DNA from: a virus
Virus record (IMG/VR): IMGVR_UViG_3300009103_000003
Span: 64,001 to 128,000 of that record
Reading direction: 5' to 3' (one strand)
Length of the DNA: 64,000 nt
This document shows positions 6,189 to 62,818 of the stretch, one piece after another; within the stretch, counting starts at the first letter, position 1; each line of letters opens with the position of its first letter. The position numbers and the translations under genes are program-made. The notes under the pieces were generated by a model. The model did not search any database. It saw only the letters and a list, made by a program, of their open reading frames with translations, and had not been told where the DNA came from.

Positions 6189-6218
6189 AAAAACAGCCGA
6201 GTCCTTGTGGGAGAGAAA

Positions 6219-7217
6219 ATGAAAGAATTACCAGCAGTTCTGGACCATTACGATGATGGAGGCTTGCTTCTTCGGAAAGAATTTAGTGAGCGTGGTGTCC
6301 CGAATATCATAAAAGTTGCCGCCGATATGTCTAACGCGCACTCTCGCCAAGAGAGTGATTACGCCCTTGTTGTAGACACTCCTCGCGGTAAAGCGCATAA
6401 ATTACCGATTATTGATGCTGGAAATGCATTGGCTTCTGCGATGTATTTCTCGGAGCATGGCAACACTTTGCCGCATGACCTTCAAAAGGAGGCCGCCCAA
6501 AAACTAAGCGACGCTTTAGTTTCTTTTGGGTTCACTCCCCCTGAAGATCTGACCAAGACTGCCGCTATGGAGCTTGGTTATAGCGGGGAGGCCGAGGACC
6601 AGAGCCTTGAGTCTCTTTTTGGGGTATCTAAGGACAATCAGTGGGAGGTCGTCAAAGACGCTTTTGACTCCTGCTCTCCTCGCGGGAAGCGCCGACTAAT
6701 GCTTCAGGTCAAAGAGGCCGGGGTGTTCAATGGTCTGTTCTCCGATGAGATGGAAGATTACGGTCGCGCCGAACTGGGTTCTGACTTTAGGGTTGGGATC
6801 GACACTAGGAGACTGGCAGTCATGGAGGGCGATGGTATCGCTGAATTAGAAGCTATTTTGGTGAAGTCTGCTTCCGCAGATCCCGAACAATTGGCTGTAG
6901 ATTTAGCTGACTTCGATATCCGGCATAGTATTACGCATATGTATAACGGGGTAATACTAGACCCCTATCAAACGGTTTACGGTACAACCGTAGAAAAAAC
7001 CGCATCTAGTGTACAACCGCTTGAAATTGGTGGTCGTGAGTATGCACCAAGTGATATTGTCTCTTGGGCAGAAGACGGCGGGTCTGATCGACTGGTCGAT
7101 TCTTTTGGTGAGACATTCGCACAGGAGTTTACTTCTGACCCCGTAGCAGTGTTAGATAGTCTACCTGTTACCCATAAACAAGCGATTGCACGGATGATTG
7201 ATGAGCCTAACCGCTGA
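6219..7217 (+). CDS. Putative virion/prohead protein with K-x-A motifs
   Basis: IIKVAAD, LTKTAAM, LVKSASA, VEKTASS; first gene of the morphogenesis block. ATG 6219 follows GGGAGAG. Confidence 0.65.
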   Translation: MKELPAVLDHYDDGGLLLRKEFSERGVPNIIKVAADMSNAHSRQESDYALVVDTPRGKAHKLPIIDAGNALASAMYFSEHGNTLPHDLQKEAAQKLSDALVSFGFTPPEDLTKTAAMELGYSGEAEDQSLESLFGVSKDNQWEVVKDAFDSCSPRGKRRLMLQVKEAGVFNGLFSDEMEDYGRAELGSDFRVGIDTRRLAVMEGDGIAELEAILVKSASADPEQLAVDLADFDIRHSITHMYNGVILDPYQTVYGTTVEKTASSVQPLEIGGREYAPSDIVSWAEDGGSDRLVDSFGETFAQEFTSDPVAVLDSLPVTHKQAIARMIDEPNR

Positions 7218-17963: not shown

Positions 17964-18448
17964 TGCCTTTAGCCACAACAGCCATAACAATGGACTCAAA
18001 GGTCCAAGACATAGTTAATGGGCTTCCCCAATCAGAAGAGGAACTCCAAAGCTGGAATGCCGCAGAGGAATGGGGCGAGGTAGCTGAGGCGTTTTTTGCT
18101 GGTGGGGTGTCCCCTGCGTGGACACCTGCGGGCCTTGCTCTAGGAAAGGCGGCTTGGATCGCCACCGCCTTAGGGGTTATGGCCTCCCCACAAGAAATGT
18201 CTGCGGCGGCGATGGAGGCCGCTTTTCCTGTGTTTGCGGCACTAGCTGCTGTTCCCGGTAATGTGCTTCCACCCATTCCCGCAATACAAGCGCCACCGGC
18301 AGCGCCACTGAGCTTGGCACCTTTGGCAGCATTACCACCATCAGAATCTACACTGCCTTCAACAACTGCTCTTCACGGTATATTATTAGCTTGGGCCATA
18401 ACTGGCACACAAACAATTCCACCGGCATCACCAGTGCCTTGGTCTTAA
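17963..18448 (+). CDS. Ala/Pro-rich hypothetical structural protein
   Basis: Coupled (TAATG) to the spike-like gene. Confidence 0.6.
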   Translation: MPLATTAITMDSKVQDIVNGLPQSEEELQSWNAAEEWGEVAEAFFAGGVSPAWTPAGLALGKAAWIATALGVMASPQEMSAAAMEAAFPVFAALAAVPGNVLPPIPAIQAPPAAPLSLAPLAALPPSESTLPSTTALHGILLAWAITGTQTIPPASPVPWS

Positions 18449-18459
18449 GGGGTAAAAAA

Positions 18460-50254: not shown

Positions 50255-50668
50255 CTACCCTTTTGCAACAACTACGATCTTATTACCGTCTTTCTTTACT
50301 TTAGTCACGAGACCTTGTTTCTTCAAAGCCTTCTGAGCAACAACGGCTGCATACCACTGGTTGACACCGGATGAGAATTTAGTCCCAACCTTAGCGCCTA
50401 ATCGACCACCATCATCTAGATCATCAACGTAGACTTGGTAACTCCCGTTCTCGCCTTTAGCGAACCCAACGTCACCGTAACCACCGTGATATGACTTCTT
50501 AATTAGAATTTCTACTTTTGCGGACTGTCGTCCGTACCCCACAAGATCAAGTAGCTCACCAGGGCTAGCGACCTGAATTTCTTCACGGGGGACACCCAGC
50601 TTTTCAAGGGCTGTGATAACTGCATTCTGATCTTTCATGCAGGTCTCACAAGTAATTAGAGCACTCAT
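50255..50668 (-). CDS. DUF1257 (Ycf35-like) protein
   Basis: ITCETCMKDQNAVITALEKLG...DVGFAKGENGSYQVYVDD pattern; co-occurs with Ycf46 AAA and DUF2997. Confidence 0.75.
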   Translation of the reverse strand: MSALITCETCMKDQNAVITALEKLGVPREEIQVASPGELLDLVGYGRQSAKVEILIKKSYHGGYGDVGFAKGENGSYQVYVDDLDDGGRLGAKVGTKFSSGVNQWYAAVVAQKALKKQGLVTKVKKDGNKIVVVAKG

Positions 50669-51279
50669 TGCACCCTCCTTAATTCGTCCAAGGTACTCTT
50701 GTCTGGGAGCCCTGTTATCTTAACAAGGCCGTCTTCCCCACACGAGACTTCTACTCTTGGCAGATTGGTTAAATCAGTCTGCTCATAAGCAGGATTTATG
50801 TATATAATCTCTTGGTTGGATGAGGAAATTAGAGGCTTGTTGCACGCCAACTTTTCTACGTATGGCCCAGAAATGACCATCGAAACAAGGGTTTCATTCA
50901 TAAAGTACGGCATCCGCATGTCTTCCAGATAGCCAGATTTCTCTAGCCGTTCCTTTGTCCACCCAGTAAATATTACTACTGATAGTTCCTTGAACTCATC
51001 TGAAGGACCCCGGTTTAAAGTCAACATGCTTTTAATCATCAGCTTGATGTCCAACCACTGCTCCATAGGCTCTCCACCAGAGATCGTGACCCCGTCTGGG
51101 TTACCGGCTAGGAGCGCACTGGCGGCGTCTAGACGAGAGATCTCCTCACCCCCGGACTCTGGCCATGTGTGTTTGTTGAAGCACCCAGGACAGCCTATGG
51201 TGCATCCCTGAACGTGTAATACATTACGACGCCCAGGACCGTTGACATAACTGTCTCTAGTTATCCCCGCTATCCTCAT
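50665..51279 (-). CDS. Radical SAM protein, NrdG/activase-like (likely start MRIAG)
   Basis: NGPGRR..VQGCTIGCPGCFN (CxxxCxxC), GVTISGGEP. Confidence 0.88.
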   Translation of the reverse strand: MRIAGITRDSYVNGPGRRNVLHVQGCTIGCPGCFNKHTWPESGGEEISRLDAASALLAGNPDGVTISGGEPMEQWLDIKLMIKSMLTLNRGPSDEFKELSVVIFTGWTKERLEKSGYLEDMRMPYFMNETLVSMVISGPYVEKLACNKPLISSSNQEIIYINPAYEQTDLTNLPRVEVSCGEDGLVKITGLPDKSTLDELRRVQ

Positions 51280-51529
51280 CTTGGGCCTCCTCAACATCAG
51301 ACCACAGCAGCCAAGGGGCTATGATTGGTCCATCATCAGGGCTTGCGCACCCGTCACTATCTGGGGCCCAAACGTCAATAGAGATGCCCTCACTATTCGT
51401 GAGGATTCCTATGTCGGCTGATGTTTCACCGTCAGGACTCGTAACTCTTATCCAGACCCGTGCACCTTCGTGTGCTTTAGTACGTTCATACTCGGTGTCG
51501 CCCGTTTGTATCAGGGCGATGCCTTCCAT
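51257..51529 (-). CDS. Hypothetical acidic protein (90 aa)
   Basis: Coupled ORF. Confidence 0.6.
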   Translation of the reverse strand: MEGIALIQTGDTEYERTKAHEGARVWIRVTSPDGETSADIGILTNSEGISIDVWAPDSDGCASPDDGPIIAPWLLWSDVEEAQDEDSGDN

Positions 51530-51714
51530 TATGACCCCGCCTTAACAGTGTCATCTGCTTGCTCATGGTATTCAGGTTTCTTCGTATCTGAAGTAACCTT
51601 TCCGCCTAGAGCTTTAACAACTGCATCGGTGTATTTGGTACACCCCGCGCCTTTGACCCCATCAACCTCTATCTCGGTTGACCCGTCAGGGTTCACTATC
51701 ACTTTGACTTCCAT
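51529..51714 (-). CDS. DUF2997 protein
   Basis: VIVNPDGSTEIEVDGVKGAGCTKYT...KPEY. Confidence 0.8.
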   Translation of the reverse strand: MEVKVIVNPDGSTEIEVDGVKGAGCTKYTDAVVKALGGKVTSDTKKPEYHEQADDTVKAGS

Positions 51715-52552
51715 AGAGTCTCCTCCAGTAACTGTTAAAATTTTGGCCGACTTGCTCAGCGGCTTCGTAGTACCCTGGACCTAAGTTATTTCCCTCAGGA
51801 TCAACAAAGTAAGCCCCAGATTGACGCAGTGTGTCACTAGCAATCAGAGCCCTCAGAAGCTCAAAGTTCCGGTCAAAACCTTTCTGGTTAAATATGAATC
51901 CATATGCGTTGCTTCCTGGCGGTGCGCTCAACGATCTAAACACAGAAAATTCTATCTTTGCGTAAGCCAATTCCCCATATTCTGTTCTTATCTGGTCCCT
52001 CCGATTACGAACCCTGGTGTCACATATATTATTAAGTACACCCTCAAAGGATGAGACAGGTGTCGGCACCAGAGCACCAATTGGAACCCGAAGCTGGCTT
52101 GTAACAAGCACGAGCGCTTCCTTCGCAATAGCTTCTTCACGTAGGGTGGAGAGGCCATGAAAAACAAGCTTTTTCTGTGCATAAGGCTCTCTTGAGCCTA
52201 CAGCGTAATTCAATTCAGTAAATGTTTCTAGGTTGGAAATGCTGTCGATAACGACAACTTTAGCGCCGTGCACCAAGGCAGAGAAAGCAGCTTCAATAGC
52301 TGCCTCCCCAAACCTTGGTGACACGACTACGCAGTCCGTAGGACCAGCGTCACTAAAATATACTTTGTCGGGCAAGCCTTCTGTGTAGACAAGAGCAGTC
52401 GGGTGACCATCAATTGAAGCTTCACGCATCACACTAAGGCATAGGGAGGTTTTGCCGCAAGCATCACCACCCACAATCTCAGACACACCAATCGGGAACC
52501 CCCCAAACAGTGCCTCATCTAACTGGCATACCCCAGTGCGAAACTTCTTCAA
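51686..52552 (-). CDS. RecA/UvsX-like recombinase-fold ATPase
   Basis: TGVCQLDEALFGGFP, GGDACGKT, VVVIDSIS, VLVTSQLR. Confidence 0.8.
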   Translation of the reverse strand: MKKFRTGVCQLDEALFGGFPIGVSEIVGGDACGKTSLCLSVMREASIDGHPTALVYTEGLPDKVYFSDAGPTDCVVVSPRFGEAAIEAAFSALVHGAKVVVIDSISNLETFTELNYAVGSREPYAQKKLVFHGLSTLREEAIAKEALVLVTSQLRVPIGALVPTPVSSFEGVLNNICDTRVRNRRDQIRTEYGELAYAKIEFSVFRSLSAPPGSNAYGFIFNQKGFDRNFELLRALIASDTLRQSGAYFVDPEGNNLGPGYYEAAEQVGQNFNSYWRRLYGSQSDSEP

Positions 52553-54126
52553 CTCATGATTCTCCTTCTGGTCTTTTTACTCGATGGTTTACGAATCTCC
52601 TTTTGGGAGTTGTCGTTTGCCATTATAGCTCGACCAGCCGCCCATTTACGCAGGCCCTCAATTTGAGTCTCCATAGTGGCGGAAAGTGGAACTGTGTTAA
52701 CAGCGGCTGATAGGTAGTCGTCTGCTGTAGGATCTCTTCCTTCAGGAAAAGCTTTATACATACCATCAATAATAATTTGCTCTAGCTCAGCGCCAGAGAA
52801 ACCATCTGTGGCATCGACTAGTGCGGCCATTCCAGTGTCATGTCCGGGGTAATCCCCAGTTAAAACGGAAGGGTCTCTACCGTATCTACCAAGATGGATA
52901 TTGATAATAGACTCCCGGTCTTCTTCCCCCGGAAGATCTACGAAAAACAGCTCATCAAAGCGACCTTTACGCAACATCTCTGGTGGAAGTGCCGATACAT
53001 CATTTGCTGTTGCAACGACGAACACCGGAGATGTCTTTTCTTGCATCCAACTCAGGAAGGAACCGAAGACCCTTGCGGTCGTCCCACTATCGGAGACTCC
53101 TGTAGAACTTCCTAGGCTTTTCTCAAGCTCGTCAATCCACAAGACACAAGGCGCTAAGGCCTCAGCAGTTTTAAGGGCTTTTCGCATGTTCGCTTCTGAT
53201 TGACCAACTAGCGAGCCAAATAGCGAGCCTACATCCATCCTTAAGACGGGCATACCCCAATCATGTCCGATGCACTTTGAGACAAGGCTTTTACCTGTTC
53301 CTGGGATTCCTACAATAAGAACTCCGCGTGGGTTAGGTAGTCCGTACTCTCGTGCTTCTTCACTGAACGAGCCGCCCCGTTGGTGCAGCCACTTCTTCAG
53401 ATTCTCAAGCCCCCCAACAGAGTTCATGTCTCTGTCAACATCGTAGAACTGGAGCACCCCACTCTTTCGGATGATGTGCTTTTTCTCCTCAATGATTATT
53501 TGGGGGTCGAGCATGCTCGCATGGGCTAGAGACTTCGCAAAGACGTTTTCGGCTTCAGCCAATGTTAGTCCGAGTGCTGCGTTTGACCCAATGTCCACCA
53601 TGTTGTTTCTAGCGTCCTCTTGCAAGGTTGCCGTGGCTGCACAGTCGGCCATCAAAAGATGTGCTGTCCCGTTTAGCTCTTGAATACTTGGTAGATCAAA
53701 ATCAACTACTGCAATAAGCTTCTCTAACCGAGGCGGGATCTCAAGCTCAGAGTCAACAATAACGATGTTGATTCCTGGGCCTAGATTAGAAAGGGTATCT
53801 CTCAGCTTACGCTGAACCAAATACTCTGGTCCGGTGTTAAGAAAATTAGCAAAGTCTCGTAATAGGAATACGCCGGATTCTCTATACCCCTGGATATAAT
53901 CCAGAACATCTAGAGGTCCGTCGAGTTCTGAAAGAACATTTTCACCGCAACGGCAACCTTCAGTGATTGACCAAACATGTAATTTGGAATTCAACCCCTG
54001 CTTGTTGTTCCGTCTCTCGATTATTCCTGATAAGCACTGCTCTACCCGACCTTCTTCGTAGGAAACTACAAAGATGGCCGGGTAGGCAGCACGAATCAGA
54101 AGGTCGAGTTCTTCGACCGACCTCAT
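52549..54126 (-). CDS. Ycf46-like AAA+ ATPase
   Basis: VGGLENLKKWL, GIPGTGKS, LWIDELEK, LRKGRFDELFFVDLP, inactive N-terminal AAA-like domain. Confidence 0.9.
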   Translation of the reverse strand: MRSVEELDLLIRAAYPAIFVVSYEEGRVEQCLSGIIERRNNKQGLNSKLHVWSITEGCRCGENVLSELDGPLDVLDYIQGYRESGVFLLRDFANFLNTGPEYLVQRKLRDTLSNLGPGINIVIVDSELEIPPRLEKLIAVVDFDLPSIQELNGTAHLLMADCAATATLQEDARNNMVDIGSNAALGLTLAEAENVFAKSLAHASMLDPQIIIEEKKHIIRKSGVLQFYDVDRDMNSVGGLENLKKWLHQRGGSFSEEAREYGLPNPRGVLIVGIPGTGKSLVSKCIGHDWGMPVLRMDVGSLFGSLVGQSEANMRKALKTAEALAPCVLWIDELEKSLGSSTGVSDSGTTARVFGSFLSWMQEKTSPVFVVATANDVSALPPEMLRKGRFDELFFVDLPGEEDRESIINIHLGRYGRDPSVLTGDYPGHDTGMAALVDATDGFSGAELEQIIIDGMYKAFPEGRDPTADDYLSAAVNTVPLSATMETQIEGLRKWAAGRAIMANDNSQKEIRKPSSKKTRRRIMS

Positions 54127-55047
54127 TTATTCGCCTACTCGAATCTTCTTTCGACGCTTTTTCTTCACGGGTGCTGGGGCTTCTTCCTCAACGACCACAC
54201 CATCGGCCTCGTCAACTCGATACAACATATCTTCCGTATCTAGCTCACAAAAGTACCAACGGATTACTTGGGCCAAGGAACGACGATGTTCTTCATCAAC
54301 ACCGTCAGCATCAGCGGTCGCCAAGAGAGTACGAAGTTCTTCAACTTCTCGCTTAGACCTGTAGGTCTTTGCTCGCTTCCGCTGCTCGGTTGCAGGGATT
54401 CCCTTGTCTTCCGTAGTCAAGATCTGCTCAAGAATCTCTGTCTGCTTAGCAACATCAGGAGTTCCATCTTCCTTCAATACCCGTGACAGCTTCTTAGCCT
54501 GGGTAAGTCGGATGTTCCCGTGTCGCAGAGCTTCAAAAGCCTCCTTGCACAAACCTCGGTAGGTCGAGGTCATGACACTTACCTGAGGCTGTGAAACAGA
54601 TAGCATAGCTGCCACCTCTTCCTGATGCCCAACTCGATCAACGAGCTTGGCAATCGCCTCACACTGGTCTGCGTGATTCAGCGAACTTCGCTGCATATTT
54701 TCACTCAGGTTTAGCGCGAGAGCCTCTTCCAAGGACCCGGTAAATACCGAGCACTGGATTTGGTCATAGAATTTACTTGTATCCTCGTTCGCCTCCTTTA
54801 GAGCAGCACGCTCCTCAGAAATAGCTTGATAACGACGATAACCTGCGAGCAGAACCAGCCTCTCAGCCCCATCCTCGTCCTTATATACTCGGACGATGGG
54901 CGGGTTCAGAAGGCCGTCCCGCTTAATAGAGTCGCGTAGCTCTGCGACCTCGAATGCATTAGCCTTCCGACAATTCTGGAAGCCGTCTGCGTTTCTCTCA
55001 ATGTCGTCAAAATTAAACTTCTTCAGACGTAGTTGACGCTGCGTCAT
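54127..55047 (-). CDS. parB: ParB/Spo0J-like protein
   Basis: LRDSIKRDGLLNPPIV, LLAGYRRYQA, ENMQRSSL, HTH (QEEVAAMLSVSQPQVS); SD AAGGAG. Confidence 0.85.
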   Translation of the reverse strand: MTQRQLRLKKFNFDDIERNADGFQNCRKANAFEVAELRDSIKRDGLLNPPIVRVYKDEDGAERLVLLAGYRRYQAISEERAALKEANEDTSKFYDQIQCSVFTGSLEEALALNLSENMQRSSLNHADQCEAIAKLVDRVGHQEEVAAMLSVSQPQVSVMTSTYRGLCKEAFEALRHGNIRLTQAKKLSRVLKEDGTPDVAKQTEILEQILTTEDKGIPATEQRKRAKTYRSKREVEELRTLLATADADGVDEEHRRSLAQVIRWYFCELDTEDMLYRVDEADGVVVEEEAPAPVKKKRRKKIRVGE

Positions 55048-55317: not shown

Positions 55318-56388
55318 TTACTCATCTCCTTTTGTATAGATTGCTCTTCTCCTCCTACCCTGCGCCTTTACTGATGTAGATCCATCAATGAAAGGTTTTA
55401 ATGCCGCAGGGTCCCCAACAACCGTTACAGAACCATCTGGTAGCAGTTGTATCTTAATCCCTGGTAGCTCTAACCAGATTTGGTCAGAGACTGCCGTCAA
55501 CTTTTGTAGACTGGGATAGTACTGCTTCAGGTTCTGAAGCTCTGTTCCCAGAGCCATTAAGGTTGAGGGTCTGGCAGTAGTAGCAATCTCTCCAGAGTCT
55601 CTTCTATGCTTGTGAATAGCTTCTCTCTCTAACCTGTCAAAGTCTGTCCTTCTTAGGGTGTCCATTTCAGTTGTTAGAGTCGTAAACCACTCATTCGCTT
55701 CTATATAGGCTGTCTTTCTACCAGCCTCTAACTTTAATCTTCCAAGCATCTTCCCTAGGATTACTCTTTCTTCTCCTATGGATACCAGCCTCTCCCTTGA
55801 ATTGGAGAATGCTGTTAGGGCTTCCTGTAGTTTTTCATTTGAGTCAACAGGGTCCCCTGATGCTGAACAATACTTTTCTCTTAGCAGTGCAATACCGTTG
55901 GATGTTTCCTGAACGGTTGCTCTAGCTTCTTGGATACCACCTATGAGTGAAGTTACATCTACTTCATCTTTCTCAAGTAACCCACCAAGACTGGCTATAC
56001 GACTTCTAAAGGTAGTCAGAAACTCTCTAGTAAACTTAAATGTATGTAAGCAGCTTTTAGGGTTTCTGGCTAACTTGTCTAGCGCATATTGTTTACCTGT
56101 TACGAAGGGTGGTGTACTTCGGTATGTTTTACATCCCTTCAGAAGGGTAGCTGTTTCAGCATCCATTATTCTAAAAGGCATATAGATATGTACCCAGGCT
56201 TCGTTGTCCTCTTTCCAAAGGTATACGTGCCCACGTTCAATTGGTGTTAAATCTTGCTCATCCCAGGGAGCACCATCTACAGGGTCTATGAAATCATTTC
56301 TAGACCAGCGACTGGTATTTGAGGTAGGATGGCAAACCACTTGGATGTGAGGTTCAGCCCGGATGTTCAAAAGCTCATGTGCTGCCAT
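55318..56388 (-). CDS. Orphan protein (about 356 aa) with coiled coil; lower GC (likely start ATG 56388)
   Basis: GGAGG 5 nt before the ATG; no recognised domain. Confidence 0.75.
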   Translation of the reverse strand: MAAHELLNIRAEPHIQVVCHPTSNTSRWSRNDFIDPVDGAPWDEQDLTPIERGHVYLWKEDNEAWVHIYMPFRIMDAETATLLKGCKTYRSTPPFVTGKQYALDKLARNPKSCLHTFKFTREFLTTFRSRIASLGGLLEKDEVDVTSLIGGIQEARATVQETSNGIALLREKYCSASGDPVDSNEKLQEALTAFSNSRERLVSIGEERVILGKMLGRLKLEAGRKTAYIEANEWFTTLTTEMDTLRRTDFDRLEREAIHKHRRDSGEIATTARPSTLMALGTELQNLKQYYPSLQKLTAVSDQIWLELPGIKIQLLPDGSVTVVGDPAALKPFIDGSTSVKAQGRRRRAIYTKGDE

Positions 56389-56420
56389 TAAACCTCCTTC
56401 GGGGAATAAGTGTGTTAGGG

Positions 56421-56533
56421 TGACAGACATTTGGTTGTCAACACACTTATACCAGATATCTGCTGTAAGTAGCCGTTAAACCTGGATTTCTGTGACAGCT
56501 TTGGGGTTGTCACTGACAACCACCCACTTGTCA
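56421..56533. repeat. Right array of TGACA-N10-TGTCA palindromic boxes
   Basis: Boxes at 56421-56440, 56493-56512 and 56514-56533. Confidence 0.9.
56446..56453 (-). promoter_or_regulatory. Putative promoter element GGTATAAG between the boxes
   Basis: About 58 nt upstream of ATG 56388. Confidence 0.5.
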
Positions 56534-56541
56534 TTAATGAT

Positions 56542-56587
56542 AAAAAACAGAGTAGGGTGGGGACGCGACAAAAGTCACGCCCCCACC
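56542..56587 (-). terminator. Intrinsic terminator after the 273-aa gene
   Basis: 14-bp stem with two G-U pairs and TTTT loop; T-tract a few nt downstream. Confidence 0.75.
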
Positions 56588-56601
56588 ACTAACATAGAAT
56601 A

Positions 56602-57423
56602 TTACTGACCTTCAACCACATTGTTGCTTGGGGTCTTGGAATGCTTCGGTGCAGCGGCCTTCACGGCATACTGACGAACCTTCTTAAACCTGAACCCATG
56701 CTCCCTCATCAAAGAGGTCTGTGCAGTTGACAGAGCAGATGTAATGGCTACCTGACTACTCTCGCTGTCCCAGGCACCCTCAACGCACTTGGCGTAGGTG
56801 GGCTGAACAAACTGAGCGATGTATTCAGGAACATCAACAACCAATTTCAGGCCCCGCTTTTCCGCGAGGTCGGAAAGATAGAATGGAACACCCATCAGGC
56901 CCAACGCCTTTGTGGTGGTCTCATCCATCACCCCCTCCTCCACAGAGAGGCCGGTGCCGCTTGCAACCAAGTCCTTCAGGGCTTCGAAGTTGTGAGGCTT
57001 CTCTTTGGCGTCTCGGTACTTGATAGCACACGAAAGAAACGCACAGATGAACTCCTCACGGGCTCGGGCCTTTTCAGCCTTGGTAGGCTTCTTGGAACCA
57101 CGCTTCCACCCACCCCTGGTGATGAAGTTCAACGCGGCAGAGCCGTCGAAGTAACCATCGCAGGACAGAGTGAACCCGAACTTGCATTGCCAAGTCCGCT
57201 TCCCATCGCTGTACTCTGGAACACCTGAGTAGTAAACCGCCTTGGTATCGGGGTCCACCACACGGAGCATCCGCGTGACAACGTTATTATAAGTAATAGT
57301 AATAACATCTGGTGCCCGCTCCGGGTCAATCAGATTCAGCATAGCTTGCCCCATACCGGGAAGCTTCCATTTGGACTTGTTTGGGCCAGTCTTCTGACCT
57401 TGGTTGTTATCGTTGGTAGCCAT
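56602..57423 (-). CDS. Hypothetical protein (273 aa)
   Basis: SD AGGAG and its own terminator; no recognised domain. Confidence 0.8.
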   Translation of the reverse strand: MATNDNNQGQKTGPNKSKWKLPGMGQAMLNLIDPERAPDVITITYNNVVTRMLRVVDPDTKAVYYSGVPEYSDGKRTWQCKFGFTLSCDGYFDGSAALNFITRGGWKRGSKKPTKAEKARAREEFICAFLSCAIKYRDAKEKPHNFEALKDLVASGTGLSVEEGVMDETTTKALGLMGVPFYLSDLAEKRGLKLVVDVPEYIAQFVQPTYAKCVEGAWDSESSQVAITSALSTAQTSLMREHGFRFKKVRQYAVKAAAPKHSKTPSNNVVEGQ

Positions 57424-57454
57424 AACACATCTCCTCTTATAAAATTTTTATAAG

Positions 57455-58120
57455 CTAGCTCGCAGAATTGCGATTTAAGTGGAAGTTGAGGAAGTCTACA
57501 TCCACTGAATAATTTATCTCATCACCGATAATACTTTTGGCAACGAGAGCACAAATAATACTTGAAATGCCATATGCGCAGAAAATTGTGCTTTTTTCTG
57601 TGCACGGTAGCTGCACCGCTTCTTCGTCAGGAAACAGACTTTGGTCGTAGTAGGAAACGCTGTTTGCATTTGATTTGTCTACATAGAAGACAGATCCTTC
57701 ACGCGCTCCCATACGACCGTCCAGGAAATACTTTGCTCCGCTGCTTACAAGAAAGCTTGACCAGATATCTGAGCGAGCAGACATATTGTCCACTGCTGAG
57801 ATTACATAGTCTTCTTGGAAGGTTTCACCCCCCTCGAACTTCCTGTCTTCAGCGATGATTTCCGCACCGGTTCCTTCCGATAGCCGTTGCTGCAAGGCTT
57901 CACATTTCTTATACCCAATTTCGGTCACGAAATAGCCTTGATTGGCTACGTTGTGAGACTCGACATCGTCAAAGTCATAGATGCGTATCTTTCGAATACC
58001 CATCTTGCACAAGGCTTCAGCAACATGGGACCCAATAGCCCCTGCGCCAACAATAGCTACAGAGCGGTTCTGTACGATTTCGTCTGGGATAATTCCGGAC
58101 TGGCGTGTGGTATCAATCAT
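57455..58120 (-). CDS. E1-like ThiF/MoeB adenylating enzyme
   Basis: AIVGAGAIGS, YDFDDVESHNVANQ, VDNMSAR, FLDGRMG, putative catalytic Cys in LPCT. Confidence 0.92.
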   Translation of the reverse strand: MIDTTRQSGIIPDEIVQNRSVAIVGAGAIGSHVAEALCKMGIRKIRIYDFDDVESHNVANQGYFVTEIGYKKCEALQQRLSEGTGAEIIAEDRKFEGGETFQEDYVISAVDNMSARSDIWSSFLVSSGAKYFLDGRMGAREGSVFYVDKSNANSVSYYDQSLFPDEEAVQLPCTEKSTIFCAYGISSIICALVAKSIIGDEINYSVDVDFLNFHLNRNSAS

Positions 58121-59136
58121 ACTGCCACCCCAACCGGCTCATCTTCATCCTCGTCGTCTTCTCCAAACTCTGCTGCTAGGATTTTCTGGACTTCATCGTC
58201 CTGTTCTTCGTCGTCCTTTTTGCTTCCGACGTCGTAGTACAGTCCAGACAACTCATCCAAAATTTCCTCTGTGCTCATTTCTTTTGCGTACCACTTAGAG
58301 TGATATTCAATGACCTCTGTAAGATCTACGATGTTTTCTTCGTAGAGTTCTGCCAGAAGCTCTAGTTCATCGGGCAACCGCAGAGACTCTTTTACGTACT
58401 CAACATTCGCGATCAAGTCATCTTCGTCCGAAGCGCTTTCGCTTTTGTCGTCTCCAGCTTCTTTGCTTTGATGACCGCCGTCCCAGCCGATGTAGTCGTC
58501 GTCCCAGTGGCCGAAGAAGCTCTGGTGGCCGTTTACTTTTCCCGTGTATGAACCGGTAGTGTACTTTCTTGTGTGTTTGACAACATTTAGTTGCGTAGGC
58601 GCGGGTCGAGAGACGTGGTCTTCAACCATCTCCTTTGCCCAGCCGTCCTCCAAGATGCTTACCTGATCAACAGACCATCCACACTTTTCAAAGGAAAACC
58701 TGAACGGGTTGTACATATCTACCCGGACATTGAGGTCTCTCTTTTTGTTGGAGATTACGCTAATACAGACCTTATCAAAATTGAATTCTTCAATTTGTTT
58801 CTCGTCTGTTCCGGAATGACCGGTATCCATATTTACATGGGAGTGCCACCATACACAGATTTGGTCTGAACTTATCCCCTGGTCCCTAAGCTCCAAAGAC
58901 ACATCTGCATAAGAGTCCATATCGAAGACAGTACTGCCCCCAGTGCACTCTTGGTCTGGAACATAGAATTCTAGAACATAGAAAGGCTCTTTAATGCCCC
59001 ACTCATTTCGTTGAGCATCTGTGGCAATAATACCAATTGCTGATATCTCAATTGGGCACTCATCAGTCAATGCTGTCATTTGTTGATATGCTTTTTGTGT
59101 AAATCGGACGGTTGGCTTTGTTAGAACTTTAGTCAT
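58117..59136 (-). CDS. JAB/JAMM metallo-isopeptidase with acidic tail (likely start ATG 59136)
   Basis: Glu in PIEIS; HSH-VNMDTGH-S-GT-D fits HxH-x7-S-x2-D. Confidence 0.92.
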   Translation of the reverse strand: MTKVLTKPTVRFTQKAYQQMTALTDECPIEISAIGIIATDAQRNEWGIKEPFYVLEFYVPDQECTGGSTVFDMDSYADVSLELRDQGISSDQICVWWHSHVNMDTGHSGTDEKQIEEFNFDKVCISVISNKKRDLNVRVDMYNPFRFSFEKCGWSVDQVSILEDGWAKEMVEDHVSRPAPTQLNVVKHTRKYTTGSYTGKVNGHQSFFGHWDDDYIGWDGGHQSKEAGDDKSESASDEDDLIANVEYVKESLRLPDELELLAELYEENIVDLTEVIEYHSKWYAKEMSTEEILDELSGLYYDVGSKKDDEEQDDEVQKILAAEFGEDDEDEDEPVGVAV

Positions 59137-60238
59137 TAGTTCCTCCTGGATTGGTTTGTTGTTGAGCGAAACGGGCTGCATACTCGTTTCTTGAGATGCA
59201 GGGTGTTCCGTTTATTCCTCTATATGATGCTGGCGGGTTTATCGGATGAACGTGATGAACCATGCAGCAGCTATGGCAGTGACCACAGCCGCTAAGGTCT
59301 TCTTGTTCTTGGATAGTTCCGCATTCGTTGCATCTAGGACACTCACAATCCGCCATGATGTGGTTCCCTGACTCACATACAGCGTTGTCCCATCTGTTTG
59401 GGCACCACGCAGATAAGTGTACGTACGGGTTCTCTCTATTATAATGTTGTAGAAAGTCCGTGAGCGTTTCGATTACTTTAGCGATATCCTTAACACCCAT
59501 ATCTTGTATTAGGGTGGGTTGGATATTGCCTAGGCATGCTGCACCATGCTCGTTTAGATGTGGGTGCGGATAGTTTCTCCTGTTACCCTCATCCGGGTTA
59601 ACGCTTTTGCAGTATACAGTGACTCGGTTTCCTCGAACGGGGTCACCGTTGTAAGTTACAGAGCAATCAAATTTACCAAAGTTGTGTGGGAGAACAGATC
59701 CGAAACCATCTTTTATGAAGATATCGTTAGTTCTCCAAGTTAGTTTTTGCTCATCTGCACTGATTGTGGAGAACTTGATTGGGACACGCGTATCGATGAG
59801 ACCCTCAATGAAACGAATCATCAACGCTCTTTTTTCGAAACCATCCTCTGTGTAGATTTCTCCGTTCAACTCCAAGCGCCTTTTTATCTGCGCAATAGCT
59901 CGCTCACACCTTTCCGCTCGGTCTCTTGCCTGAGAAGACTTTGAACTTCGGTCCATAAGCTTTTGTCTGGCAGCACGCGTTCTCGCTCTGGCACGGTCGT
60001 ACTCTGCCTCCTTGGCAGCAAGGCGTTGCTGGGCTCGGGTATAGATAGCCGACCTAGCAGAGACCTTATTGTTGTGCATTCGTTCTGCGGCACGCTCTCT
60101 TTCTAGCGCGGCAGACAATTTTATAAGCTCTTTTGAAGCAAGACTTTCTGAGTCGGTGATGATGGTCTGAAGTTGTTTGGCAATCAGAGCGTCGTCACCA
60201 TTAAAAGTTAGTTCGTAGTTTTTTGCTGTTGATGCCAT
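59129..60238 (-). CDS. E2/UBC-like protein with N-terminal coiled coil and C-terminal Cys/His cluster (likely start ATG 60238)
   Basis: YPHPHLNEHGAACLG resembles UBC HPN..G.xCL; lies between Ubl and JAB genes. Confidence 0.78.
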   Translation of the reverse strand: MASTAKNYELTFNGDDALIAKQLQTIITDSESLASKELIKLSAALERERAAERMHNNKVSARSAIYTRAQQRLAAKEAEYDRARARTRAARQKLMDRSSKSSQARDRAERCERAIAQIKRRLELNGEIYTEDGFEKRALMIRFIEGLIDTRVPIKFSTISADEQKLTWRTNDIFIKDGFGSVLPHNFGKFDCSVTYNGDPVRGNRVTVYCKSVNPDEGNRRNYPHPHLNEHGAACLGNIQPTLIQDMGVKDIAKVIETLTDFLQHYNRENPYVHLSAWCPNRWDNAVCESGNHIMADCECPRCNECGTIQEQEDLSGCGHCHSCCMVHHVHPINPPASYRGINGTPCISRNEYAARFAQQQTNPGGTND

Positions 60239-60249
60239 AGTTTCTCCAC

Positions 60250-60286
60250 AAAAAAATAGCGGATGCCCCCCGAAGGGGACACCCGC
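60250..60286 (-). terminator. Intrinsic terminator between the Ubl and E2 genes
   Basis: GCGGGTGTCCCC-TTCG-GGGGGCATCCGC followed by TATTTTTTT on the minus strand. Confidence 0.88.
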
Positions 60287-60296
60287 CACTTTTATT

Positions 60297-60338
60297 ACTC
60301 GTTATATTATTGGTCAGGTATAACGAGTTTGGGTCAGG
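60297..60338. promoter_or_regulatory. 10-bp inverted repeat plus GGTCAGG direct repeats
   Basis: ACTCGTTATA (60297-60306) and TATAACGAGT (60319-60328); GGTCAGG at 60312 and 60332. Confidence 0.5.
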
Positions 60339-60351
60339 AGACTAGTAACGA

Positions 60352-60861
60352 CTACTGTCGTCCACCAGCAACCTTGTTACCAACCCAAATCTCATGCGGC
60401 CCTTCACCGAGAACGGTGCTGTTCGGGTCCGTAATGTCTGCGGTTTGGCCAGGGCCAACTCGTCGCTTGAAGGTGAGGCTGCGAATATCCCAGCCGCCCT
60501 CTTGCGTATTTAGCGTACTCACGATGTCTCCAAGAGTGGAGTCAGTGCGAACTTCAAGGCAACGGTCAGACTTACCATTTCGGATAAGCGTAACAACACA
60601 CATGTCAGCGGCGCTGACTGTGCTTGTGGACGGGGCGGCGAAGGAGATGTTTCCTCCTCCGTTAACACCACCAGAACCATTAGTTCCGTTGCTGTTCGTT
60701 GCTGATTCAAGTCGGCTTTGCGCCTCGTTTACAGCAGACTGGAGCGCCTGCAAGCGGTCGAGGTTGCTTCGACTGTAGTCTGTTCCCATGTTGGCAACGA
60801 AAGAATCTCGTGCTGAGGTTGCTGACCCCAACGTTTCGTTCAAGTAATCAATGTTTTGCAT
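60352..60861 (-). CDS. Ubiquitin-like (beta-grasp) protein with helical N-terminal extension, ending GG-RQ
   Basis: C-terminal 85 aa follow a beta-grasp pattern and end NKVAGGRQ; SD AAGGAG. Confidence 0.82.
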   Translation of the reverse strand: MQNIDYLNETLGSATSARDSFVANMGTDYSRSNLDRLQALQSAVNEAQSRLESATNSNGTNGSGGVNGGGNISFAAPSTSTVSAADMCVVTLIRNGKSDRCLEVRTDSTLGDIVSTLNTQEGGWDIRSLTFKRRVGPGQTADITDPNSTVLGEGPHEIWVGNKVAGGRQ

Positions 60862-60876
60862 AACTAGTTAGTCTCC

Positions 60877-61236
60877 TTAGACTAGATCCCAACGGAAACC
60901 GTTGAAAATCTTTTGTAGCTTACCCGTTATTTCTTCCATGCTTTCTGCATTGAGGGTAACTACTGATGAATCATCAAAATCTACACGAATTGCTCGTGGT
61001 ACATTAGACATGTCTGGCGTTTGGCTTTTGCCGATATCGCCTGCTGTAGCGTAAACGCTATACTCTATAAATGTCACATTATCGTTCTCGAAGGATGGTC
61101 TCCGTCCCACATAGCAGGTCAAATCCCAGCCCTTGTGTGACGCTGTTTTAACCTTCTTTCGGTTCTCCAAAACTTTAGATATTAGCGCATAATAATCTTC
61201 ACGCCCAGTTTCCGGAGTGTCAGTTCTCTCAACCAT
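60877..61236 (-). CDS. Hypothetical protein (119 aa)
   Basis: SD GAGG; tiled. Confidence 0.7.
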   Translation of the reverse strand: MVERTDTPETGREDYYALISKVLENRKKVKTASHKGWDLTCYVGRRPSFENDNVTFIEYSVYATAGDIGKSQTPDMSNVPRAIRVDFDDSSVVTLNAESMEEITGKLQKIFNGFRWDLV

Positions 61237-62380: not shown

Positions 62381-62818
62381 TTAGGGCCTCGTAAACCTGA
62401 GTCCGCCGATAAGTATGGACTTTTTTATAGACATAGAGGCTTTCTTAGACATAGCAGCCAACGCCTTTCGGTCCCACTCAGGAGTCACCTCGTCTTTTAC
62501 AGGTGAGAGCGGCTCCCTATAGTCAGCTACCATTTCCTCGCCCGGAGCGATATCTTTAGTGGCATAGGCAATAAGTTTTTTGCCGGATTTCCGTAAACCC
62601 ACATTGGCCACAGGTGAGTGGTTGAAGTAATCCCCCAGAAGGGTTTGGTGATAGTCCTTATAAACATCACCCGTGGGCTTACCGCTCTTTCTTATTAAGG
62701 CAACGCCGAGGACTTCCCCAGCCTTGTGGCCGCGCACACTGAAGCTCCCGGTCCCATCGATGGGGGACCGCTTGTGCTTTATCCGACCGTTTTCAACATG
62801 AGATAACATACTGTCCAC
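62381..62818 (-). CDS. SET-domain protein (putative lysine methyltransferase)
   Basis: SPIDGTGSF, YFNHSPVAN, ATKDIAPGEEMVADY. Confidence 0.88.
   Translation of the reverse strand: MDSMLSHVENGRIKHKRSPIDGTGSFSVRGHKAGEVLGVALIRKSGKPTGDVYKDYHQTLLGDYFNHSPVANVGLRKSGKKLIAYATKDIAPGEEMVADYREPLSPVKDEVTPEWDRKALAAMSKKASMSIKKSILIGGLRFTRP

What the first reader, a model, noticed from the sequence alone, without database searches (positions are those of the whole stretch)
57455..60861. Complete phage-encoded ubiquitin-like conjugation operon (Ubl-E2-JAB-E1)
Seen: four consecutive co-oriented genes. The Ubl ends VAGG-RQ; the E2-like gene has HPH..G.ACLG; the JAB has an intact HxH-x7-S-x2-D; the E1 has GxGxxG and PCT. 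E2/JAB and JAB/E1 overlap at stop/start. Known: GG followed by extra residues needs JAB processing before E1 activation. Bacterial Ubl/E2/JAB/E1 operons (Bil, Bub types) conjugate Ubls to proteins, and Bil acts against phages. Inference: this phage carries its own protein-tagging system, which could modify host proteins, counter host defence, or tag its own virion proteins. Whether close phage homologues are already described cannot be judged here.
Basis: partly seen in the sequence, partly recalled or inferred. Interest (0 to 1): 0.92.

Follow-up and report, generated by a model that had tools for sequence, protein, structure and literature searches.

The report
Phage-encoded ubiquitin-like protein-tagging module
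A complete 181-kb marine phage, and many uncultured phages like it, carry their own ubiquitin-style kit (tag, carrier enzyme E2, trimming protease, activating enzyme E1). Such machinery has so far been characterised in bacteria only as anti-phage defence, and I found no paper describing it in phages.

Summary
Four co-oriented minus-strand genes encode four proteins.

- **Ubl:** a helical hairpin, a linker and a beta-grasp domain, ending KVAGG-RQ.
- **E2-like protein:** a UBC-type core with HPH-x7-Cys, the spacing I recall for classical E2s. It sits between a long coiled coil and a C-terminal domain with 12 invariant Cys/His.
- **JAB protease:** an intact E...HxHx7SxxD motif.
- **E1:** a minimal 221-aa ThiF-type enzyme with an invariant P-C-T cysteine.

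The order Ubl-E2-JAB-E1 is kept at every related place examined where the contig reaches far enough. These include distant groundwater phages, whose Ubl is a 70-aa ThiS-like protein ending PKVAGG plus three residues. The E2 family has 656 clusters at 50% identity; the look-alike clusters that carry taxon labels are mostly viral.

One correction: it is not a simple four-gene operon. A conserved terminator-like hairpin follows the Ubl gene.

The module is not a Bil, Bub, CBASS or PRTRC member by sequence models. It shares gene order with Bil and PRTRC, and its E1 and the nearby ParB score best or second-best against PRTRC models.

The most likely reading is a working Ubl activation, conjugation and trimming system with unknown targets. 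No biochemistry exists. This scan has noted other, different phage Ubl cassettes on other DNA.

The parts
60352..60861 (-). Ubl precursor, 169 aa. It has an N-terminal helical hairpin (res 2-57), a low-complexity linker (59-83) and a beta-grasp domain (87-162). The C-terminus is K-V-A-G166-G167 plus R-Q, which is presumably removed.
   Evidence: AF2 model. Foldseek PDB hits are to SUMO, Ub, UBX and MoaD. KVAGG is invariant and followed by 0-3 variable residues in 24 homologues. Minimal 70-aa versions in distant phages score just under Pfam's ThiS threshold and weakly match SAMP2.
60246..60293 (-). Terminator-like GC hairpin followed by a U-run, in the Ubl-E2 spacer. It probably acts as a partial terminator or attenuator, so that more Ubl is made than enzymes.
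   Evidence: Read from the sequence. Fold dG -47 kcal/mol, z -6.45. Hairpin plus U-run at the same place in L001, L003, L004, L008, L009 and L015, with unrelated sequences; hairpin alone in L012. The consensus scanner did not list it.
59129..60238 (-). E2-like protein, 369 aa. It has a beta-strand (6-10), a coiled-coil hairpin (16-128) and a UBC-like core (about 133-280) with H225-P226-H227 and C235. The C-terminal domain (283-369) has 12 invariant Cys/His: C288, H293, C298, C300, C303, C306, C318, C321, C324, C325, H329 and C347.
   Evidence: Alignments. AF2 pLDDT 92.6. Foldseek PDB top hits are almost all E2 enzymes, best 2yb6 at E 0.02, prob 0.96, target TM 0.41. Atlas rows name UQ_con, Prok-E2_D and E2-CBASS. 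Three of 40 distant members give weak Pfam UQ_con matches; the one printed lies at profile positions 69-121. Marginal profile hits to UBE2L3.
58117..59136 (-). JAB/MPN+ metalloprotease, 339 aa from the MTKV start. The catalytic domain covers about residues 20-190 of the 354-aa ORF numbering. An acidic, poorly conserved C-terminal half ends in PVGVAV.
   Evidence: E45 and H113xH115x7S123xxD126 are invariant. The family profile's best PDB hits are all RPN11/PSMD14, E 0.014, with the motif aligned. Pfam Prok-JAB gives only E 0.073. The complex model with the Ubl tail passed its controls.
57455..58120 (-). Minimal E1-like adenylyltransferase, 221 aa. It has one ThiF/MoeB-type adenylation domain with candidate catalytic C173 (LPCTEK), and no CYS domain, UFD or CxxC zinc pairs.
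   Evidence: Pfam ThiF 1.3e-22, above the cut-off. PDB matches: UBA5, Cap2, MccB, ThiF. NCBIfam: ThiF 1.4e-20 and PRTRC_ThiF 8.9e-19. Invariant residues.
60877..61236 (-). Conserved 119-aa protein of unknown fold directly upstream of the Ubl gene. In relatives its gene overlaps the Ubl start. It may belong to the module.
   Evidence: Co-conserved in all marine-clade loci including L015. No Pfam, PHROG or NCBIfam hit. It carries VKTAS at residue 29.
55318..57423 (-). Two conserved unknown proteins (273 aa and 370 aa) directly downstream of the E1 gene. Whether they belong to the module is open.
   Evidence: Co-conserved in the marine clade including L015, absent from L012/L013. No family or PDB match.
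52549..55047 (-). Context genes: a ParB-like protein (54127-55047) and a Cdc48/PAN-like AAA+ ATPase (52549-54126).
   Evidence: The ParB's best NCBIfam hit is PRTRC_parB, 5.1e-12, below the cut-off. The AAA's best hits are CDC48 and proteasome-activating nucleotidase, also below the cut-off. Pfam ParB_N and AAA. ParB and an AAA gene follow in the same order in L015, and an AAA gene lies upstream in L013.

Best explanation
This is a self-contained, phage-encoded system that activates, conjugates and trims a ubiquitin-like protein.

Proposed steps:
1. The Ubl is made as a precursor. It is probably made in excess of the enzymes, because a terminator-like hairpin follows its gene.
2. The JAB metalloprotease removes the residues after Gly167.
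3. The minimal ThiF-type E1, probably a homodimer like UBA5, MoeB and ThiF, adenylates Gly167. It probably takes the Ubl onto Cys173 in its crossover loop.
4. The Ubl passes to Cys235 of the E2-like protein.
5. The E2's coiled coil and zinc-type C-terminal domain stand in for an E3 or adaptor and choose the acceptor.
6. JAB may also reverse conjugation.

Shown here: the four folds or families, the catalytic motifs and their conservation, the conserved gene order, and a complex model that puts the Ubl tail on the JAB active site.

Inferred: every chemical step, the E1-to-E2 relay, the role of the Cys/His domain and the targets.

The module lies in the leftward block of non-structural genes (SLT, SET domain, ParB, AAA+, RecA-like, radical SAM). 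I therefore lean towards action during infection on host or phage replication and establishment proteins, rather than a structural role.
For: - E1: Pfam ThiF 1.3e-22. Nearest solved relatives are UBA5, Cap2 and MccB. C173 is invariant from marine to groundwater phages and in PRTRC ThiF proteins.
- Ubl: beta-grasp model and Foldseek hits. GG is invariant with variable tails. The same PKVAGG/PKVQGG plus three residues ends the 70-aa ThiS-like Ubls before distant E2 genes.
- E2: high-confidence model. E2 enzymes dominate the Foldseek list. Atlas rows are UQ_con, Prok-E2_D and E2-CBASS. There are weak UQ_con and UBE2L3 sequence matches. HPH and Cys are invariant or nearly so across 100 family members.
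- JAB: full JAMM motif. RPN11 is the best PDB match.
- JAB:Ubl complex model: score 0.85, best of 3 controls 0.01. That mark was reached by 58 of 80 solved complexes and 2 of 110 mismatched pairs. Runs agree in at least 81% of contacts and the partner's pLDDT is at least 79. The interface includes JAB E45, S47, H113, H115, S123, D126 and Ubl 161-169. Like complexes are solved, for example 6fno. The pass therefore shows likeness, not binding.
- Synteny: all four genes are in the same order in the window and 10 of 11 loci; the eleventh, L006, is cut off by the contig end. Three more distant loci add to this: L012 and L015 keep the same layout, and L014 keeps a small Ubl before the E2 gene on a 3-kb contig.
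- Translational coupling of E2/JAB and JAB/E1.
Against:
- The window's own E2, JAB and Ubl match no Pfam, PHROG, PADLOC or NCBIfam model at a significant level.
- Structural support for the UBC fold is consistent but numerically weak: best Foldseek E 0.02 and target TM about 0.4.
- The E1 lacks the Arg of the usual NLxRQ motif (it reads HNVANQ). It also lacks the CxxC zinc site, a CYS domain and a UFD, so how it recruits the E2 is unknown.
- No target, no separate E3 and no proteasome-like protease is encoded.
Confidence: 0.7

Rival explanations
1. Sulfur-carrier pathway. The E1 adenylates the ThiS/MoaD-like Ubl, which becomes a thiocarboxylate and donates sulfur to a cofactor, tRNA or modified DNA base. 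JAB only matures the carrier, and the E2-like protein is a scaffold or sulfur relay.
For: - The minimal Ubls of distant members are ThiS/MoaD/SAMP-like.
- The best NCBIfam hit of the E1 is the ThiS adenylyltransferase ThiF.
- JAB-ThiS/MoaD-E1 sulfur operons exist in bacteria (PMC1779556).
- A radical-SAM gene lies nearby.
Against: - No rhodanese, cysteine desulfurase or sulfur-acceptor enzyme was seen next to the module.
- A UBC-type protein with invariant HPH...Cys is kept in every member. The sulfur operons tabulated in PMC1779556 list no E2-like protein.
- The Ubl carries a conserved N-terminal helical domain that a simple sulfur carrier would not need.
Confidence: 0.08
2. Bil-like defence cargo. 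The phage carries the module to tag virion proteins of competing phages (superinfection exclusion), as bacterial Bil tags a tail protein. It would not act on its own or the host's proteins.
For: - The gene order matches BilABCD: Ubl-E2-DUB-E1.
- CC-Ubl architectures exist in type II Bil.
- All characterised bacterial systems of this kind act against phages.
Against: - The module is a fixed, syntenic part of a whole clade of 148-181-kb phage genomes. It does not look like a variable accessory island.
- The E1 has 221 aa and one domain, against the IAD+AAD+CYS E1 of type II Bil.
- No PADLOC defence model matched the E2, JAB or Ubl.
Confidence: 0.12
3. PRTRC-like establishment module. It is the phage counterpart of the uncharacterised ParB-related/ThiF-related cassette of plasmids and integrative elements. 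It would act with the nearby ParB, and perhaps the AAA+ ATPase, in replication, partition or establishment of the element. Mechanistically this is still a Ubl system, so it overlaps the best explanation.
For: - The second-best NCBIfam hit of the E1 is PRTRC_ThiF (8.9e-19), and the best hit of the ParB is PRTRC_parB (5.1e-12).
- Most plasmid tblastn hits of the E1 are annotated as PRTRC ThiF.
- The PRTRC order C(Ubl)-F-B(E2-like)-A(JAB)-ThiF, with ParB beside it, mirrors the phage order.
- The P-C-[TS] cysteine is shared.
Against: - All scores are far below the NCBIfam cut-offs.
- Profile-profile comparisons of the E2, JAB and Ubl families with PRTRC B, A and C are not significant: E 0.036, 0.01 and 0.27.
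- PRTRC proteins E and F have no counterpart here.
- The aligned PRTRC_B proteins have no His at the position of the phage HPH.
Confidence: 0.1

Closest known systems
BilABCD (bacterial ISG15-like) operons, types I and II (10.1101/2023.09.26.559546; 10.1101/2023.09.04.556158; PMC11601603)
   Same: - Four separate genes in the order Ubl-E2-JAB/DUB-E1.
- The Ubl ends in Gly plus extra residues that the DUB removes.
- Some type II Ubls have an N-terminal coiled coil before one beta-grasp domain.
- There is no separate E3.
   Different: - The type II Bil E1 has an inactive and an active adenylation domain, a mobile CYS domain and a structural zinc (catalytic Cys417). The phage E1 has 221 aa and one domain.
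- The type II Bil E2 belongs to the CEHH family. The phage E2 keeps a classical HPx...Cys loop and adds a coiled coil and a Cys/His-rich domain.
- No defence-system HMM matched.
- The carrier is a phage genome, not a bacterial defence island.
PRTRC cassette (NCBIfam TIGR03734-TIGR03742). I think it corresponds to operon type 6d of Iyer, Burroughs and Aravind 2006 (PMC1779556), but I did not verify that.
   Same: - Order Ubl(C)-E2-like(B)-JAB(A)-ThiF, with a ParB gene beside it.
- Overlapping B/A and A/ThiF genes.
- The Ubl ends in a conserved Gly followed by a variable tail.
- The E1 is a short single-domain ThiF with the same P-C-[ST] cysteine.
- The phage E1 and ParB score best or second-best against the PRTRC models.
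- The cassette sits on a mobile element and its function is unknown.
   Different: - The PRTRC_B proteins aligned here have no His where the phage has HPH.
- PRTRC has proteins E and F, which are absent here.
- The phage E2, JAB and Ubl families are not detectably related to PRTRC B, A and C beyond catalytic-loop motifs.
- The phage Ubl ends in GG, PRTRC_C in G-x-K-G.
Type II CBASS Cap2/Cap3
   Same: - E1 and E2 chemistry with a JAB peptidase that reverses or trims.
- The adenylation domain of the phage E1 matches Cap2 models at about 1e-15, and Cap2 structures 7tsq and 7to3.
   Different: - Cap2 is an E2-E1 fusion.
- The conjugated C-terminus belongs to a CD-NTase, not to a Ubl.
- There is no CD-NTase or effector here.
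Eukaryotic-type Ub/E1/E2/RING/Rpn11 operon of Caldiarchaeum subterraneum (PMC5654768, PMC3082918)
   Same: - A compact gene cluster with a Ubl, E1, a classical-type E2, a zinc-finger ligase function and a JAB/Rpn11-like protease.
- The Caldiarchaeum Ub:Rpn11-homologue complex (6fno) is among the fold matches of the phage Ubl.
   Different: - There the RING E3 is a separate small protein and the Ubl is a close ubiquitin relative.
- Here the zinc-type domain is fused to the E2 and its fold is unassigned.
- The phage Ubl looks ThiS/MoaD-like.
Lambda/T1 tail-assembly TAPI (Ubl) with TAPK (JAB-NlpC) (PMC1779556)
   Same: A phage-encoded Ubl with a C-terminal Gly, next to a JAB peptidase.
   Different: - That system has no E1 or E2.
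- It lies in the tail-assembly cluster.
- The module here lies outside the structural block and has full activation and carrier enzymes.

Membership tests
E1-like ThiF/MoeB adenylyltransferase superfamily | Rossmann-type adenylation domain matching Pfam PF00899 above its cut-off, with GxGxxG and the Mg/ATP-binding Asp | tested here: met
   PF00899 scores 80.6 bits against a cut-off of 28.1. G25, G27, G30, D49, D111 and R116 are invariant.
E1-like ThiF/MoeB adenylyltransferase superfamily | Catalytic or acceptor Cys in the crossover loop, needed for a thioester-forming E1 | tested here: inconclusive
   C173 (P-C-T) is invariant, also in PRTRC ThiF proteins. Its position in the crossover loop is inferred from the alignment only. 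No E1 structure model was made.
UBC/E2 superfamily | UBC fold: helix 1, a four-stranded meander, the active-site loop, then helices 2-3 | tested here: met
   AF2 pLDDT 92.6, with that order of elements in residues 133-264. Foldseek PDB hits are almost all E2s, but weak: best E 0.02, target TM about 0.4. An Atlas UQ_con cluster gives TM 0.54 by its row over 134 residues.
UBC/E2 superfamily | HPN-type motif with the catalytic Cys 8 residues after its third position | tested here: met
   The sequence reads H225-P226-H227-x7-C235. The spacing equals that of HPNINSNGSIC in UBE2D2, which I quote from memory. These residues are invariant or nearly so in 100 family members.
UBC/E2 superfamily | Match to a curated E2 model (Pfam UQ_con, Prok-E2_A to E, E2-CBASS) | tested here: not met
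   The window protein has no Pfam hit at E 0.1 or better. Only 3 of 40 distant relatives touch UQ_con, best E 0.0024, below the cut-off.
JAB/MPN+ (JAMM) metalloproteases | E...HxHx7SxxD zinc and catalytic motif | tested here: met
   E45, H113, H115, S123 and D126 are invariant in 26 sequences. The motif aligns to RPN11.
JAB/MPN+ (JAMM) metalloproteases | Match to Pfam Prok-JAB or JAB above the cut-off | tested here: not met
   PF14464 gives E 0.073 and 13.4 bits against a cut-off of 25. The profile's best PDB E-value is 0.014.
Beta-grasp ubiquitin-like modifiers | Beta-grasp fold ending in a flexible tail with C-terminal Gly(-Gly) | tested here: met
   Model and Foldseek. KVAGG is invariant.
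Bil (BilABCD) systems | Gene order Ubl-E2-DUB-E1 | tested here: met
   compared with the papers.
Bil (BilABCD) systems | E1 (BilD) with inactive and active adenylation domains, a CYS domain and a structural zinc | tested here: not met
   The phage E1 has 221 aa, one domain and no CxxC pairs.
Bil (BilABCD) systems | Components recognised by anti-phage defence HMMs | tested here: not met
   The Ubl and JAB have no PADLOC hit at E 0.1 or better, and the E2 only a chance-level LmuB row (E 0.021). The E1 hits only CBASS E1-E2 models over about 70 residues. I could not confirm which Bil models PADLOC 2.0 holds.
Bub (type I/II) systems | Ubl-E2 or E2-E1 or JAB-E1 fusions plus a DUF6527 (BubE) protease | tested here: not met
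   All four are separate genes. None of the eight proteins around the module that were scanned against Pfam gave any Pfam family beyond ThiF, SLT and two sub-threshold rows, so no DUF6527.
Type II CBASS | Cap2 E2-E1 fusion, Cap3, CD-NTase and effector | tested here: not met
   E2 and E1 are separate genes, and no CD-NTase was seen among the neighbours.
PRTRC cassette | ThiF and ParB members above the NCBIfam cut-offs | tested here: not met
   TIGR03736 scores 67.8 bits against 144.75, and TIGR03734 scores 45.1 against 278.6. They are nevertheless the second-best and best hits.
PRTRC cassette | PRTRC proteins A, B, C, E and F present | tested here: not met
   No NCBIfam hit for the Ubl, E2, JAB or flanking proteins. 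hhalign against alignments of PRTRC B, A and C gives E 0.036, 0.01 and 0.27.
RING/binuclear treble-clef E3 domains (for the E2 C-terminal domain) | Cross-brace coordination of two zinc ions by eight Cys/His | tested here: inconclusive
   Twelve invariant Cys/His in residues 288-347. There are only chance-level sequence matches to GATA and PHD fingers and an Atlas LIM-containing row at TM 0.18/0.40. The structure searches were dominated by the coiled coil, and the domain was not folded alone.

The most novel reading that the evidence does not exclude
The module is a true viral ubiquitin system of a bacteriophage, in which a classical-type (HPx...Cys) E2 carries its own zinc-finger adaptor and recognises a short consensus site directly, as Ubc9 recognises psi-K-x-E. 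It would attach the phage Ubl to the lysine of the [E/V/L/I/T]-K-x-A-[S/A/G] motif. That motif is strongly over-represented in this phage's head and cargo proteins: 34 seen against 9 expected. Under this reading the motif marks tagging sites rather than, or as well as, protease cleavage sites.
Probability: 0.06. Interest if true: 0.95.

Novelty: new variant of a known kind. Interest (0 to 1): 0.78.

Why it matters
Ubiquitin-like conjugation in bacteria has been characterised only as host defence against phages (CBASS type II, Bil), or in Bub operons of unknown biological role.

A phage that keeps its own complete kit as a fixed part of its genome changes the picture. A family of E2-like proteins with hundreds of clusters accompanies it in uncultured phages. 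The virus side of the conflict may also tag proteins. The purpose could be to take over or disarm the host, to regulate its own replication, or to modify its own particles.

The E2 is of interest for evolution. It keeps the classical HPx-x7-Cys loop of eukaryotic E2s and is fused to a zinc-type domain, a possible one-protein E2-E3. It works with the smallest kind of E1.

The system is small: four proteins of 169, 369, 339 and 221 aa. It should be easy to reconstitute. The claim is therefore directly testable and could yield a compact orthogonal tagging tool.

Tried and rejected
- **VIA-align searches of the E2 model** (pdb_via_wide and pdb_via). Both lists were filled by coiled-coil proteins matching residues 15-150. 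They say nothing about the UBC core or the Cys/His domain.
- **Direct sequence searches against the PDB.** The E2 alone and its close-family profile gave nothing significant. The JAB alone gave nothing.
- **GenBank phages.** blastn of the locus and tblastn of the E2 found no match.
- **The search for related loci with the 60-sequence E2 alignment** failed, because no stretch was conserved enough.
- **A phage ubiquitin-proteasome analogue.** I considered this because a Cdc48/PAN-like AAA+ ATPase lies 3.3 kb downstream. No proteasome or ClpP family match exists in the whole 181-kb genome, so I dropped it.
- **PRTRC membership.** One Polaromonas PRTRC_B sequence seemed to share a YN...PY motif (E 8.6e-4). 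This did not survive comparison with an alignment of five PRTRC_B proteins (E 0.036).
- **Flanking proteins** of 119, 273 and 370 aa. I found no family, PDB or Atlas lead.
- **Promoter and terminator consensus scan.** Counts were at background, and it missed the Ubl-E2 hairpin.
- **Complex model.** One of the three runs scored 0.01.

Full report
**Setting.** The window is bases 64001-128000 of a 181,199-bp IMG/VR virus record with direct terminal repeats, rated 100% complete. It encodes a large terminase, a major head protein and a helicase on the plus strand. The finding lies in a leftward block of non-structural genes. That block holds an SLT lytic transglycosylase, a SET-domain protein, a ParB-like protein, an AAA+ ATPase, a RecA-like protein and a radical-SAM protein.

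**Observation.** Four consecutive minus-strand ORFs are present as described. Two starts need refining.
- The E2-like gene starts at the ATG at 60238 and gives 369 aa, as gene callers have it.
- The JAB gene starts at 59136 (MTKV...), as in all its homologues.
- With these starts the JAB ATG overlaps the E2 stop by 8 nt, behind an AGGAGG. JAB and E1 overlap as ATGA.
- Between the Ubl and E2 genes lie 113 nt. They fold into a long GC hairpin followed by a U-run (dG -47 kcal/mol, z -6.45).
- Six related loci carry the same kind of element at the same place, with different sequences. A seventh has the hairpin without the U-run.
- I read this as a conserved partial terminator that keeps the tag in excess over its enzymes. 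'Four-gene operon' is therefore only approximately right.

**E1.** The 221-aa protein matches Pfam ThiF at 1.3e-22.
- Its nearest solved relatives are UBA5, Cap2, MccB and ThiF.
- GxGxxG, D49, K72, D111, R116 and C173 (LPCTEK) are invariant across marine and groundwater phages. The same P-C-[ST] is found in PRTRC ThiF proteins.
- It has one adenylation domain only. There is no CYS domain, no UFD and no CxxC zinc site, and the usual NLxRQ reads HNVANQ.
- It is thus a minimal, UBA5/MoeB-style E1.

**Ubl.** Twenty-four homologues share three parts:
- an N-terminal helical region;
- a variable low-complexity linker;
- a C-terminal domain ending in invariant KVAGG plus 0-3 unconserved residues.

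The AF2 model gives a helical hairpin (2-57), a disordered linker and a beta-beta-alpha-beta-beta-beta domain with pLDDT about 90. Foldseek places that domain among SUMO, ubiquitin, UBX, ISG15, MoaD and the Caldiarchaeum ubiquitin, at E about 1e-4 and target TM up to 0.68. In distant members of the system the gene before the E2 encodes a 70-aa protein ending PKVAGG-IHA or PKVQGG-SIN. These proteins score just under Pfam's ThiS threshold and weakly match SAMP2.

**E2.** The window protein has no Pfam, PHROG, PADLOC or NCBIfam match.
- A profile of its eight near relatives finds 656 clusters (50% identity) at E 0.001 or better.
- Across 100 aligned members, H225, P226, H227, C235 and Y266 are invariant or nearly so.
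- The loop HPHLNEHGAAC has the same spacing as HPNINSNGSIC of UBE2D2, which I quote from memory.
- The AF2 model is confident (pLDDT 92.6). It shows a short strand, a 110-residue coiled-coil hairpin and a helix-meander-loop-helix-helix core. After that comes a C-terminal region with 12 invariant Cys/His.
- Foldseek against the PDB returns almost only E2 enzymes (Rad6, UbcH5, Ubc9, UbcH7). The numbers are weak: best E 0.02, prob 0.96, target TM about 0.4.
- Independent hints agree. Atlas structure rows are UQ_con, Prok-E2_D and E2-CBASS. An Atlas UQ_con cluster gives TM 0.54 over 134 residues. Three of 40 distant relatives touch Pfam UQ_con; the one match printed lies at profile positions 69-121. 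There are marginal profile hits to UBE2L3.
- In BFVD the best structural neighbours are unnamed proteins of uncultured phages.
- I accept the UBC assignment at about 85%. The fold of the Cys/His domain is unassigned.

**JAB.** E45 and H113-x-H115-x7-S123-x2-D126 are invariant in 26 sequences.
- The family profile's best PDB matches are all RPN11/PSMD14, E 0.014, with the motif aligned.
- One source annotates a homologue as 'proteasome lid subunit RPN8/RPN11'.
- A controlled complex prediction of JAB(16-200) with Ubl(84-169) scored 0.85, against a best control of 0.01.
- That mark was reached by 58 of 80 solved complexes and 2 of 110 mismatched pairs. The runs agreed in at least 81% of contacts, and the partner's pLDDT was at least 79.
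- The interface includes E45, S47, H113, H115, S123 and D126 of JAB and residues 161-169 of the Ubl.
- Similar JAMM:ubiquitin complexes are solved, so this shows likeness, not binding.

**Conservation.**
- The same order Ubl-E2-JAB-E1 is found in the window and in 10 of 11 loci from ENA, JGI and IMG/VR contigs of 148-182 kb. The eleventh, L006, is cut off by the end of its contig.
- A more distant Tara contig and a groundwater contig keep the same layout. A third distant E2 gene sits on a 3-kb contig behind a small Ubl gene.
- The groundwater E2 matches the profile at only about 1e-13. Its JAB is a clear homologue (hhalign 99% probability).
- In the marine clade a 119-aa gene upstream and 273-aa and 370-aa genes downstream travel with the module. 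They are absent from the groundwater contigs.

**Comparison with known systems.**
- Bil: the gene order equals BilABCD, and coiled-coil Ubls are known in type II Bil. However, the Bil E1 is a two-domain enzyme with a CYS insertion and a zinc site, and the type II Bil E2 belongs to the CEHH family. No defence HMM matched the phage proteins.
- Bub and CBASS use fusions that are absent here.
  - The second-best NCBIfam hit of the E1 is PRTRC_ThiF, and the best hit of the nearby ParB is PRTRC_parB.
  - Most plasmid matches of the E1 are annotated as PRTRC ThiF.
  - The PRTRC order is ParB-E-C(Ubl)-F-B(E2-like)-A(JAB)-ThiF.
  - All these scores are far below the cut-offs. Profile-profile comparisons of the other three families are not significant.
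- I therefore file the module as a new variant of prokaryotic Ubl-conjugation systems. It is organised like Bil and PRTRC, and a member of none.

**Literature.** Full-text searches gave the bacterial systems, and the 2006 survey that notes only Ubl+JAB in lambdoid tail clusters. They gave no description of a phage E1-E2-JAB-Ubl module. A 2021 comparative review of jumbo phages does not mention E1, JAB or Ubl. Earlier notes of this scan report other, different phage Ubl cassettes on other DNA.

**Mechanism and limits.**
- The most economical reading is: trimming by JAB, adenylation and possibly a thioester on E1 C173, transfer to E2 C235, and target choice by the E2's coiled coil and zinc-type domain. 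JAB may also act as an eraser.
- None of the chemistry is shown. How an E1 without a UFD or CYS domain hands over to the E2 is open.
- The targets are unknown. The genome has no proteasome or ClpP.
- Rivals are a sulfur-carrier role, a Bil-like exclusion role, and a PRTRC-like establishment role.

Noticed in passing
window 60239-60351 (-); L001:6454-6526, L003:6454-6528, L004:6448-6515, L008:6436-6518, L009:6445-6521, L015:4914-5000, L012:4930-5000: A GC-rich hairpin sits between the Ubl and E2 genes in every locus with a clean spacer. A U-run follows it in all of these but L012. The sequences are unrelated but the position is the same, which suggests conserved partial termination after the tag gene.
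   Followed up: partly
window 6207-42057 (+), and 60877-61236 (-): The motif [E/V/L/I/T]-K-x-A-[S/A/G] occurs 34 times in the window's proteins against 9 expected from shuffles. It is concentrated in head-block proteins: 9 against 0.37 in 18391-20463, 5 against 0.11 in 6207-7217, and once at residue 24 of the major head protein. First-stage notes read it as a prohead-protease site. The 119-aa protein just upstream of the Ubl has VKTAS at residue 29, and the Ubl tail itself reads N-K-V-A-G-G.
   Followed up: partly
window 58117-58300 (-) and homologues in alignment A5: After an acidic, poorly conserved linker, many JAB homologues end in a tail such as VVGGSK, VVGGAK, LGGSK or KGGAK. The window's JAB ends in PVGVAV. 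The tail resembles the KVAGG end of the Ubl. It could be a pseudo-substrate that blocks the active site, or a second C-terminus that the E1 can activate, as with CD-NTases in CBASS. This was not tested.
   Followed up: no
window 52549-54126 (-): An AAA+ ATPase whose best NCBIfam matches are CDC48 and proteasome-activating nucleotidase (below the cut-off; phrog_8638 at 9e-130) lies 3.3 kb downstream of the E1. An AAA gene also lies near the module in L015 and L013. No proteasome or ClpP is encoded in the genome.
   Followed up: partly
window 57424-57454 (-): An AT-rich perfect inverted repeat (CTTATAAAA/ATTTTATAAG) sits in the 31-nt gap between the E1 stop and the next gene's ribosome-binding site.
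   Followed up: no
L020-L024 and L018 (PRTRC cassettes on plasmids): PRTRC protein C ends in a conserved R-A-A-G-x-K-G, followed by nothing or by up to about 70 unconserved residues. That is the same design as here: a conserved Gly plus a tail to be trimmed. It suggests that PRTRC protein A (JAB-like, with HSHG...S..D) matures it.
   Followed up: partly
window 62381-62818 (-), 51686-52552 (-), 50665-51297 (-): The same leftward block holds a SET-domain protein, a RecA-like protein whose start overlaps the end of the AAA+ gene, and a Fer4_12 radical-SAM protein. The groundwater relative L012/L013 also has AAA, radical-SAM, DUF2997 and DUF1257 genes near its module.
   Followed up: no
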